Positions 1 to 37,171 of a DNA stretch of 37,171 nt are shown here, piece by piece. The notes below the pieces were generated by a model. It saw nothing but the letters and a program-made list of their open reading frames with translations. It made no database searches and was not told where the DNA came from. The position numbers and the translations under genes are program-made. This DNA is from a virus (Duplodnaviria; Caudoviricetes). The first letter of the stretch is position 1. Every line of letters starts with the position of its first letter. The stretch covers positions 1 to 37,171 of IMG/VR virus record IMGVR_UViG_3300032219_001945; one strand, given 5' to 3'.

Positions 1-123
1 CTGGAGCTGTGACCGAAGTAGCGGCGTTAGTAGCGATAGAGCCGCATCGTACTCTTCAACGTCTAACGACGGATTGTCAGCGGCAACAGCTGGAACGAAC
101 GGACGCGACGGGCAACCCGGTGA
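1..123. repeat. Terminal direct repeat, left copy (circular assembly overlap)
   Basis: 1-123 (ctggagctgtgaccg...gggcaacccggtga) is identical to 37049-37171 and lies inside the terminase coding sequence. Confidence 0.97.
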
Positions 124-8949: not shown

Positions 8950-9065
8950 GCCAGCAAGACTGGCTTTGCCTCGCCCTTGGCATTGCATTTTTCTACCTCG
9001 GGACCAAGGTTCCCGACCATCGACAAAACGACCGAAACGAACTCCGAAAGGACGACAACAAATGA
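8946..9065 (+). CDS. Small hypothetical protein (39 aa) with hydrophobic segment
   Basis: Manually read MSQQDWLCLALGIAFFYLG...; AAGGAG RBS; ATGA overlaps on both sides. Confidence 0.5.
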   Translation: MSQQDWLCLALGIAFFYLGTKVPDHRQNDRNELRKDDNK

Positions 9066-9865
9066 ACAACGAACTAGCAAGCCTTGATAACTCAGACAAG
9101 ATTCTCTCCGTCCTCGTTGACGGCGATCTTGCCAAACTCACCGCCACCGAGCGCGTGAATTACTACAACGCCGTGTGCAGCTCTGTTGGACTGAACCCGC
9201 TCACCAAGCCATTCCAGTTCATCCTCTTGAACGGCAAACTGACGATGTACGCCCTGAAAGGCGCAACTGATCAGCTACGTGCAGTCAACGGCGTGAGCAT
9301 TGACCCGCCCAAGATTGAACGGGCCGACGGTTGGATTACCGTCACTGTCACAGGCGTGGACAAGACCGGCCGCCGCGACTCCGAGATCGGCGTGGTGTCC
9401 GAAAAGGACATGCAGGGCAATTATGCCAACTCGCTGATGAAGGCTGTCACAAAGGCAAAGAGACGCCTTACGCTGGCAATGTGCGGCCTTGGGATGCTTG
9501 ACGAAACGGAAGTTGAAACGATCCCCAACGCAAGGGTAGTTGATGACCGCCCCACCCCGTCTGCGCTACCTGCGAACGCTTCCGAGGGTCTGATCAAGCA
9601 GAACGCAACTCGCATCCGCAAAGACGATTGGAGGTGGGAAGCATCCAAGGTCAAGGAGATGAACAAGGCGATTGCCGACGGGGGCGACGATCCCGCCGAG
9701 GTCATCAATTACGCCTACGAACAGGGAGTCAAAACGCCCGAGCAATTCCAACGGGTTTGGGGCTACTTCCAAGAGGCTGAATGCTCATTCCGTGGCGCGG
9801 TGGATTCACTGTTCGGCACCTACGACCCGACCGACGAAACGATTGATGCGGAGGTGGTGGCGTGA
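9062..9865 (+). CDS. Single-strand annealing recombinase (RecT/Bet-like)
   Basis: ATG at 9062; LAKLT..ERVNYYNAVC..VGLNPLTKPF...MKAVTKAKRRLTLAMCGLG.LDETE is an SSAP-type pattern; located just upstream of ssb. Confidence 0.75.
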   Translation: MNNELASLDNSDKILSVLVDGDLAKLTATERVNYYNAVCSSVGLNPLTKPFQFILLNGKLTMYALKGATDQLRAVNGVSIDPPKIERADGWITVTVTGVDKTGRRDSEIGVVSEKDMQGNYANSLMKAVTKAKRRLTLAMCGLGMLDETEVETIPNARVVDDRPTPSALPANASEGLIKQNATRIRKDDWRWEASKVKEMNKAIADGGDDPAEVINYAYEQGVKTPEQFQRVWGYFQEAECSFRGAVDSLFGTYDPTDETIDAEVVA

Positions 9866-10050
9866 AAGATCTGCGCCAAGAGGAATTAGAGTCTAGCTTG
9901 AGATTTGCCGAAGAGCAATTCCAAAAAGCATTGCAAGGAATCATTGATGCCCGCAATGCCGCAAATGATGCGGAGGAAGAAGTCACAACCGCTCGAAAAG
10001 CATTAAGAAATTACATTATGAACAAGATAAATTCCGAGGTGGTGGCATGA
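9862..10050 (+). CDS. Small coiled-coil hypothetical protein (62 aa)
   Basis: GGAGGTGG RBS; coupled; more AT-rich than the flanks. Confidence 0.6.
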   Translation: MKDLRQEELESSLRFAEEQFQKALQGIIDARNAANDAEEEVTTARKALRNYIMNKINSEVVA

Positions 10051-10451
10051 ACCGCATCATCCTAATCGGTCGCCTTGTCCGCGATGTTGAGAAGCGCACG
10101 ACATCAACCGGCAAGACGTTTGCCACCATCACCGTGGCCGTCCGTAAGAAGATCAAGCCGACGAACCCCGACGAGAAGGATAGTGACTTCTTCAACTGTA
10201 AGGTCTGGGGGCAGTCAGCCGACTATGCCGCCGGTTACCTTGCCAAAGGCTCGCTAGTGAGCTTGGAGGGGCGCATGGAGAGCCGTAAGTACACGGACAG
10301 TACTGGTGCCAATCGAGAAGTGTGGGAAGTAGCGGTAGATCAAGTGAGCGGGTTAGACCGAGCCAACAAAGACAGCACTTCTACCCAAAGCGCAAAAAGC
10401 ACTAACAAGCCATTACAGGAGGACGAGTCGTATGATCCTTTCGCCGAATAA
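10047..10451 (+). CDS. ssb: Single-stranded DNA-binding protein
   Basis: MNRIILIGRLVRDVE.R.T..GK...DFFNCKVWG...YLAKGSLVSLEGRMESRKY; acidic tail EDESYDPFAE. Confidence 0.96.
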   Translation: MNRIILIGRLVRDVEKRTTSTGKTFATITVAVRKKIKPTNPDEKDSDFFNCKVWGQSADYAAGYLAKGSLVSLEGRMESRKYTDSTGANREVWEVAVDQVSGLDRANKDSTSTQSAKSTNKPLQEDESYDPFAE

Positions 10452-10923
10452 AAACCATGCCGAACAAGTTGGTTGCGTCATCCCGTTAACGCAAGGGTTT
10501 AATGCAATTGTTGATGCTGACCAGTATGCGAGTCTATCAAAACACGACTGGTTCAAGCACCCTAACGGCGCGGCAAGATCGGTTAATGGTCGGGCGGTGT
10601 TCATGCATCGTCACATTTTGACTCCTCCGACTGGCTTTCTTGTTGACCACATCAACAGGAATAATTTAGACAATCGAAAATGCAACCTTCGCGTTTGTAC
10701 AGCCGCTCAAAACAACCGAAACGCCAAACGGAGGATTGACAACAAGTCGGGTTACCGAGGCGTTAGTTGGCACAAAGCAACGCGCTCATGGGTAGCTCAA
10801 ATAAGCGTTGGCGGGAAGATTCTTTACCTTGGGAAATTTGATAATCCGGTAGACGCCGCGATTGCATACGATAACTCATGCGTCCGACTTCACGGGGATT
10901 TTGCATCCTTGAATTTTCCTAAA
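10296..10923 (+). mobile_element. Putative homing-endonuclease cassette carrying a replacement ssb 3' end
   Basis: Bounded by homologous segments starting at 10296 and 10924; removing it gives an intact in-frame ssb. The exact boundaries are approximate. Confidence 0.7.
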
Positions 10924-11055
10924 GACAAGGAAGGGCAGAACCGGGAAGTTTGGGAGGTGACGGTAGACCAAGTAAACGGGTTAGACAAGAAGCCCAGCGG
11001 CAATTCGGCACCGGCACCCGCTGCCAACGATGACTCATATGATCCCTTTGAGTGA
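10432..11055 (+). CDS. HNH-AP2 homing endonuclease fused to an SSB C-terminal segment
   Basis: MHRHIL...VDHINRNNLDNRKCNLR (HNH), SGYRGVSW...W.AQI...YLGKF...AAIAYD...HGDFASLNFP (AP2), then DKEGQNREVWEVTVDQVNGLD...DDSYDPFE; GGAGG RBS inside the ssb tail. Confidence 0.92.
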   Translation: MILSPNKNHAEQVGCVIPLTQGFNAIVDADQYASLSKHDWFKHPNGAARSVNGRAVFMHRHILTPPTGFLVDHINRNNLDNRKCNLRVCTAAQNNRNAKRRIDNKSGYRGVSWHKATRSWVAQISVGGKILYLGKFDNPVDAAIAYDNSCVRLHGDFASLNFPKDKEGQNREVWEVTVDQVNGLDKKPSGNSAPAPAANDDSYDPFE

Positions 11056-37048: not shown

Positions 37049-37171
37049 CTGGAGCTGTGACCGAAGTAGCGGCGTTAGTAGCGATAGAGCCGCATCGTAC
37101 TCTTCAACGTCTAACGACGGATTGTCAGCGGCAACAGCTGGAACGAACGGACGCGACGGGCAACCCGGTGA
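37049..37171. repeat. Terminal direct repeat, right copy (circular assembly overlap)
   Basis: Identical to 1-123. Confidence 0.97.

What the first reader, a model, noticed from the sequence alone, without database searches (positions are those of the whole stretch)
10047..11055. HNH-AP2 endonuclease inserted into ssb with a recoded replacement 3' end; the displaced SSB tail is fused in frame to the nuclease
Seen: SSB ends DSTGANREVWEVAVDQVSGLD...EDESYDPFAE (from 10296). The downstream HNH-AP2 protein does not stop after its normal end (ASLNFP) but continues K-DKEGQNREVWEVTVDQVNGLD...NDDSYDPFE (from 10924). Deleting 10296-10923 gives a clean ssb (SRKYT-DKEGQNREVWE...). The two copies differ mostly at synonymous positions (AAT CGA GAA GTG TGG GAA GTA versus AAC CGG GAA GTT TGG GAG GTG), and the nuclease RBS and ATG lie inside the upstream copy. 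Established: 3'-end replacement by free-standing homing endonucleases is known in fungal mitochondrial atp genes, and SSB acidic tips bind host repair proteins. Inference: this is a splicing-free homing cassette that repairs its target gene and protects it from cleavage by recoding. The nuclease may use the captured SSB tip to recruit repair or recombination factors to its own cut. The in-frame fusion could also be chance (about 1 in 3).
Basis: partly seen in the sequence, partly recalled or inferred. Interest (0 to 1): 0.85.

Follow-up and report, generated by a model that had tools for sequence, protein, structure and literature searches.

The report
Homing nuclease swaps phage SSB ending

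Summary
Observation confirmed. A 628-bp insert (10296-10923) in a phage ssb holds a replacement 3' end plus an intact-looking HNH-AP2 gene that reads in frame into the displaced native end. Empty alleles exist (6 of 9 close-relative contigs; joint 10295-10924 in two runs). A second carrier differs at 1 of 565 insert-only bases but 32 of 249 upstream and 7 of 107 in the displaced tail. The replacement is a foreign allele rather than one recoded in place; its dense change is 9 of 12 bases at codons 85-88, non-synonymous. That patch also occurs in insert-free alleles, likely immune. A second, unrelated HNH-AP2 sits at the same gene's end and keeps only F-A-E-stop, without the acidic tip; no other of 265 homologues ends in an SSB tail; displaced ends at other loci occur in and out of frame. 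Best reading: splicing-free homing cassette whose displaced end serves as the right homology arm; tail likely a by-product (0.65). Cleavage and drive untested. Known from fungal mitochondria; not found in print for phages in 10 searches, but this scan noted the same layout earlier at three other phage genes.

The parts
10047..10295 (+). native 5' part of ssb (codons 1-83); left homology arm
   Evidence: Pfam PF00436; 10-15% different among relatives; GC3 0.77
10296..10451 (+). replacement 3' end of ssb (codons 84-134 and stop), in frame, divergent from the population's native end
   Evidence: GC3 0.49; codons 89-104 differ from native ends by 11.0 of 48 nt on average against 5.8 among native ends; linker absent from all other SSBs returned
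10299..10310 (+). codons 85-88 (S-T-G-A in place of K-E-G-Q), 9 of 12 nt different; likely immunity patch
   Evidence: also in insert-free L024, L025 and protein P0279
10417..10434 (+). AGGAGG, 9-nt spacer and ATG of the nuclease, inside the replacement end
   Evidence: sequence; no stable hairpin over it (z +1.7 to +1.9)
10432..10923 (+). HNH-AP2 endonuclease core (HNH_3 residues 66-96, AP2 106-147); D72, H73, N94 present
   Evidence: model pLDDT about 90-98 over residues 21-160; AP2 fold matches
10457..10489 (+). 10-codon ORF starting 5 nt after the ssb stop, one base out of frame with the nuclease
   Evidence: sequence; same in L017; no indel in X2 or X3 contigs
10924..11055 (+). displaced native 3' end of ssb, read in frame as the nuclease's last 43 residues; likely right homology arm; its stop lies 1 nt before the next ATG (11057)
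   Evidence: 7 of 63 nt from L001 against 20 of 63 for the upstream copy; low pLDDT 45-68
10924..10927 (+). GACA, repeated at 10296-10299: 4-nt overlap at the joint
   Evidence: table 5 (both = 4)

Best explanation
The 628-bp insert is likely a splicing-free homing cassette: an HNH-AP2 nuclease gene that brings a foreign, in-frame ending for ssb and leaves the native ending behind it. Shown: the layout, the empty alleles, the near-identity of the insert between carriers with divergent flanks, intact catalytic residues. Inferred: in co-infection the nuclease nicks or cuts the K-E-G-Q-type empty allele at a site spanning the codon 83/84 joint; repair copies the cassette using the ssb 5' part as left arm and the displaced end as right arm, so each new carrier keeps a whole SSB and inherits the recipient's own end as the displaced copy. 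Carriers hold each half of the joint but never the whole, so they would be immune. Recombination between the two copies, or short conversion, would give insert-free alleles with the S-T-G-A patch, predicted immune. The in-frame tail is most likely a by-product of a 4-nt overlap, tolerated and perhaps favoured because it ends translation 1 nt before the next gene's start.
For: Empty alleles: 6 of 9 close-relative contigs have no nuclease after ssb (L001, L021-L025), 4 with K-E-G-Q and 2 with S-T-G-A; joint 10295-10924 in X2 and X4; 10 of 12 related SSB proteins have D-K-E-G-Q. Window against L017: 1 of 565 differences in the insert-only part, 32 of 249 upstream, 7 of 107 in the displaced tail (Fisher p 2e-16 and 2e-5). 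L017's displaced copy is 2 of 63 nt from a functional allele (L019) but 6 of 63 from the window's displaced copy. The 21-nt empty joint has no match in the window at up to 3 mismatches. All 10 invariant columns of 58 aligned sequences are kept, and H73-N94 has the spacing of I-HmuI H75-N96 (residues from a passage of PMC12724721). No Rfam match at E up to 1. A second, 41%-identical HNH-AP2 (L019/L020) shows the same layout at the last codons, with L025 as empty allele (5 of 500 nt different downstream).
Against: No cleavage, expression or inheritance data. Low diversity inside a young non-homologous insert is also expected without drive when flanks recombine freely; the homologous part of the replacement does show 4 of 63 differences between carriers. 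Only two carrier contigs span both joints with flanks, and the X2 carrier has L017's letters, so it may not be a further allele. No donor of the replacement linker was found. The ATG just after the ssb stop is out of frame, so the gene could be weakly expressed or a frameshifted relic.
Confidence: 0.65

Rival explanations
1. One-off illegitimate recombination put a foreign ssb end plus a passenger nuclease gene here; the nuclease is silent or untargeted and the insert drifts in a freely recombining population.
For: Frequent recombination is visible in all homologous parts; the out-of-frame ATG at 10457 fits a lost base after an original start (inference); PMC2248197 (passages) argues that HNN-AP2 genes spread without sequence specificity and then decay.
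Against: Catalytic residues intact; changes seen in the nuclease are few (3 synonymous, 2 non-synonymous over L017/X2 and a depth-3.9 X3 contig); insert DNA seen in runs of 4 studies, one possibly the source; the right joint coincides exactly with the start of the divergent patch; a second nuclease hit the same gene.
Confidence: 0.15
2. The captured SSB tip is functional on the nuclease and recruits host or phage repair and recombination proteins to the cut.
For: The tail ends in an acidic Y-D-P-F tip like Fimbriimonadaceae chromosomal SSBs; all 6 codon differences between the two carriers' tails (first 35 codons) are synonymous; both tip variants also occur on full-length SSBs (P0131, P0132); the model leaves the tail free and disordered; both nucleases at this gene are in frame. 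E. coli SSB recruits at least 17 partners through its tip (abstract openings).
Against: The second nuclease keeps only F-A-E, without D-P or the acidic run. None of 265 other HNH-AP2 homologues ends in an SSB tail and a search with residues 125-207 returned only the query and 12 plain SSBs. The synonymous pattern follows from exchange with functional alleles. Displaced ends at other loci occur both in frame (L128) and beyond the nuclease's own stop (L139).
Confidence: 0.1
3. Different origin, similar outcome: S-T-G-A was an existing immune allele of the population, the nuclease first sat behind such an intact ssb and cut neighbours' ssb from a distance (as T4 segG targets gene 32), and the duplication arose later by one aberrant repair at the cut.
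For: S-T-G-A occurs in insert-free L024, L025 and P0279; L024 has the window's exact protein over codons 1-83.
Against: Beyond the patch (codons 89-104) L024 and L025 are native-like (3-8 nt from native ends) and 10-12 nt from the replacement; no nuclease-1 carrier without the duplication was found.
Confidence: 0.1

Closest known systems
Mobile endonuclease ORF 'gene hybrids' of fungal mitochondria (Allomyces atp6; Glomus atp6, atp9, cox2, nad3; PMC3630166, passages read)
   Same: Endonuclease ORF brings a foreign C-terminal piece in frame with the host gene; the native end is left downstream and stays closer to relatives; no splicing needed.
   Different: Here a phage, an HNH-AP2 rather than LAGLIDADG or GIY-YIG enzyme, and the native end is read in frame onto the nuclease; in Glomus atp6 and cox2 the native end was not in the mRNA.
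T4 free-standing endonucleases, segG (target gene 32, the T4 ssb) and mobE (PMC2988022, passages and section 17)
   Same: Intron-less nuclease in a replication operon, start overlapping the upstream gene, an ssb gene as target.
   Different: Those cut hundreds to thousands of bases from their gene or split the host gene into two proteins; here the insert interrupts its presumed site as an intron would and restores one whole protein. The word 'duplicat' does not occur in that review.
ShiLan hidden HNH in a phage methylase (PMC11855218, abstract)
   Same: Non-intron, non-intein HNH insert in a phage gene with homing-like distribution.
   Different: ShiLan is read through in the host frame; here ssb stops at 10451 and the host end is duplicated.
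HNN-AP2 endonucleases of Xanthomonas phages (PMC2248197, passages)
   Same: Domain order and family.
   Different: No target-gene end replacement in the passages read.

Membership tests
HNH-AP2 endonuclease | HNH_3 domain followed by AP2 domain | tested here: met
   Both above Pfam cut-offs (26.9 vs 24.8; 35.7 vs 33.3 bits); AP2 fold matches E 5e-4; I-HmuI and I-PpoI only at E 0.4-0.8
HNH-AP2 endonuclease | catalytic D-H ... N residues | tested here: met
   D72, H73, N94
Free-standing homing endonuclease | not in an intron or intein | tested here: met
   insert is coding end to end; no Rfam match at E up to 1
Free-standing homing endonuclease | cognate empty alleles in related genomes | tested here: met
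Free-standing homing endonuclease | site-specific cleavage of the empty allele, not of the carrier | not testable with these tools
   needs an assay; the intact joint is absent from the carrier
Free-standing homing endonuclease | biased inheritance | tested here: inconclusive
   low insert diversity against divergent flanks fits drive but also youth plus recombination
Mitochondrial mORF gene hybrid | duplicated C-terminus around an endonuclease ORF, inserted piece in frame with the host gene | tested here: met
Mitochondrial mORF gene hybrid | downstream copy native, inserted copy foreign | tested here: met
   donor not found
Mitochondrial mORF gene hybrid | fungal mitochondrial genome; LAGLIDADG or GIY-YIG enzyme | tested here: not met
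   phage genes (terminase, capsid, primase), HNH-AP2: works like one, is not a member
ShiLan-type hidden HNH | insert open in the host gene's frame throughout | tested here: not met
   ssb stops at 10451
CasPR (CapR-AP2 repressors; bioRxiv 10.64898/2026.02.23.707548, passages) | CapR domain with AP2, no nuclease | tested here: not met
   the protein is accounted for by HNH, AP2 and the SSB end
SSB-Ct partner-recruiting tip | terminal acidic tip that binds partner proteins | not testable with these tools
   sequence resembles host-type tips; binding not tested

The most novel reading that the evidence does not exclude
The nuclease has captured a working SSB docking tip and uses it to pull host recombination and repair proteins to its own cut: a homing enzyme that brings its own repair crew, renewed from the victim's allele at every homing event.
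Probability: 0.1. Interest if true: 0.85.

Novelty: new variant of a known kind. Interest (0 to 1): 0.52.

Why it matters
It shows a third way, beside introns and inteins, for a homing nuclease to sit in its own target inside an important phage gene: bring a spare ending. It is caught here while polymorphic, with carrier, empty and likely immune alleles side by side (L017, L021 and L025 share one assembly prefix), so the target is predicted to within a few dozen bases and the whole invade-resist-lose cycle is testable. It would also make nucleases agents of SSB tail exchange between phages, and gives an HNH-AP2 protein a named candidate target.

Tried and rejected
Misassembly: rejected. Intron: rejected. 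RBS-hiding hairpin as in T4 nucleases: none. Donor of the replacement end: not found (16 proteins, none with the linker, no exact match in viral contigs). Single-sequence fold was useless (pLDDT 31); the alignment-based one was used. No RNA holder listed, so expression is open. Contig depths were not used as allele frequencies. In one search the 'upstream gene' comparison was out of register and the ungapped tail comparison runs past a deletion; both were dropped. The set scanned held 273 proteins, 8 of them SSBs (P0279-P0286), removed from the count of 265. First survey of displaced ends flagged L139, L148, L161, L168 and L048; L148 (paralogous HTH), L161, L048 and L168 did not hold in the stop-anchored test, which also misses very short ends such as L019's. 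Loci around the upstream gene (80 loci) gave no further ssb-nuclease pair. Searches of annotated phages gave only distant relatives and were not followed. Host chromosomal ssb as a target: nearest differs at 4 of 24 nt around the joint (L110), left open. No complex prediction was run: no defined partner.

Full report
Context. The window is a phage genome of about 37 kb with a 123-nt terminal repeat, terminase, capsid, primase and resolvase genes. Its ssb is closest to chromosomal SSBs of Fimbriimonadaceae (55-58%), which suggests an Armatimonadota host (inference). The best independent run holding the stretch is a freshwater metagenome.

Observation. ssb (10047-10451) and a 207-aa HNH_3-AP2 ORF (10432-11055) are as described. 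After ...ASLNFPK the ORF continues into a second copy of the ssb end, 628 bp downstream of the first. The joint has a 4-nt overlap. The layout recurs in L017 and in contigs of further runs, so it is real.

Which copy is native. Nine close-relative contigs were recovered: L001 and L017, L019-L025 (L018 is an unrelated nuclease locus). One (L017) carries the insert, six have no nuclease after ssb, two (L019, L020, identical over 954 nt) have a different nuclease. Over the 21 shared codons L001 differs from the downstream copy at 7 of 63 nt and from the upstream copy at 20 of 63. Ten of 12 related SSB proteins have D-K-E-G-Q and none has the replacement linker. Runs X2 and X4 hold the joint 10295-10924.

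Nature of the replacement. GC3 is 0.49 in the replacement and 0.48 in the nuclease, against 0.77 in the ssb 5' part. Codons 89-104 differ from native ends by 11.0 of 48 nt on average (16 pairs), native ends from each other by 5.8 (28 pairs). The linker is unrelated. This fits import from a more distant phage together with the nuclease; no donor was found. The densest change is 9 of 12 nt at codons 85-88, directly at the joint, and is non-synonymous. 'Recoded' is thus only partly apt.

Signs of mobility. Window and L017 differ at 32 of 249 nt in the ssb 5' part, 4 of 63 in the homologous part of the replacement, 0 of 93 in its linker, 1 of 472 in the nuclease and 7 of 107 in the displaced end; the 1.7 kb upstream differs at 3-20 per 100 nt. 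L017's displaced copy is nearer to a functional allele of another phage (2 of 63) than to the window's displaced copy (6 of 63). This is what homing with the displaced end as right arm predicts, but a young insert in a freely recombining population gives a similar picture; drive is not shown. A depth-3.9 contig in X3 has 5 further changes in 10359-10708, which may be errors.

Predicted target. Carriers keep the left half of the empty joint in ssb and the right half at the start of the displaced copy, and the intact 21-nt joint is absent from the window at up to 3 mismatches. If the enzyme is active and spares its carrier, recognition must span the joint (inference). Insert-free L024, L025 and P0279 carry the S-T-G-A patch followed by native sequence: the expected product of recombination between the two copies or of short conversion, and predicted immune. 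An older polymorphism is the alternative.

The enzyme. All 10 invariant columns of a 58-sequence alignment are kept; D72-H73 and N94 match the spacing of I-HmuI D74, H75, N96 (passage of PMC12724721). The model is confident over residues 21-160 and disordered in the tail; fold matches are AP2 domains, with I-PpoI and I-HmuI only weakly. The only in-frame start that includes the family's N-terminal motif is ATG 10432, with AGGAGG 9 nt upstream and no hairpin. An ATG 5 nt after the ssb stop is one base out of frame and opens 10 codons; it may dampen expression or mark a lost base (inference).

The fused tail. For function: all 6 codon differences between the carriers' first 35 tail codons are synonymous, the tip resembles host-type tips and both nucleases at this gene are in frame. 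Against: the second nuclease (41% identical) ends N-F-Q-F-A-E-stop, taking only the last three ssb codons, with L025 as its empty allele; none of 265 other homologues ends in an SSB tail; a search with residues 125-207 found only the query and 12 SSBs. In 72 other viral HNH-AP2 loci with a testable upstream gene (of 89 fetched), a stop-anchored test against 5112 mismatched pairs found L139 (other frame, beyond the nuclease's own stop; above all null scores), L128 (in frame, p 0.0008) and two borderline cases, L163 (other frame) and L199 (in frame). Both frames occur. Simple causes suffice: the 4-nt overlap, with P-K-D following the AP2 end naturally in 4 of 104 motifs, and the native stop lying 1 nt before the next ATG, whereas the other frames would stop about 100 or 25 nt earlier.

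What is known. The layout matches mobile-ORF gene hybrids of fungal mitochondria (PMC3630166, passages). T4 segG targets the ssb gene 32 from a distance, and mobE and mobA split host genes (PMC2988022, passages and one section). PMC10448857 (abstract, passages, section 21) describes phage nucleases near essential genes but, in what I read, no end replacement. Ten literature searches (listings only unless named) showed no phage case; the library lacks most subscription papers and supplements were not read. Unchecked notes of this scan report the same layout at nrdJ, nrdB and a head-tail adaptor gene in other phages, and nucleases at other SSB ends.

Verdict. Real, well supported by population data, a new variant of a known kind: a phage version of mitochondrial end replacement, with a sharply predicted target. 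The boldest part, a functional SSB tip on the nuclease, is not excluded but unlikely (0.1). Interest 0.52.

Noticed in passing
L019:1329-1799 and L020:608-1078: A second, unrelated HNH-AP2 gene follows ssb and ends in frame in the ssb's last codons F-A-E-stop; L025 is the empty allele with the same next gene.
   Followed up: yes
L024:377-394, L025:736-753, protein P0279: Insert-free ssb alleles with the S-T-G-A patch only; likely excision or short-conversion products.
   Followed up: partly
window 10457-10489: 10-codon ORF right after the ssb stop, one base out of frame with the nuclease; shared by all carriers seen.
   Followed up: partly
L139:1345-1389 and 1974-2016: Displaced 3' end of the upstream gene after an HNH-AP2 gene, out of frame with the nuclease; a transcribed-looking intergenic gap precedes the nuclease.
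   Followed up: partly
L128 (ends 1492 and 1992) and L199 (ends 1495 and 1998): HNH-AP2 proteins whose last 7-8 residues resemble the end of the upstream protein, in frame.
   Followed up: partly
window 9062-9865: Gene upstream of ssb has no Pfam or PHROG match but 197 viral relatives; in L002 a different, recombinase-like gene takes its place, so it may be a strand-annealing protein (inference).
   Followed up: no
window 1-123 and 37049-37171: Exact 123-nt terminal repeat; the contig is probably a complete circular assembly.
   Followed up: no
window 9862-10050 and downstream of 11055: The genes on both sides of ssb are swapped freely among relatives (different next gene in nearly every contig), with shared sequence around starts and stops.
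   Followed up: no
L110:2001-2429: A Fimbriimonas chromosomal ssb has the same D-K-E-G-Q-N-R-E peptide and differs at 4 of 24 nt around the predicted target.
   Followed up: partly
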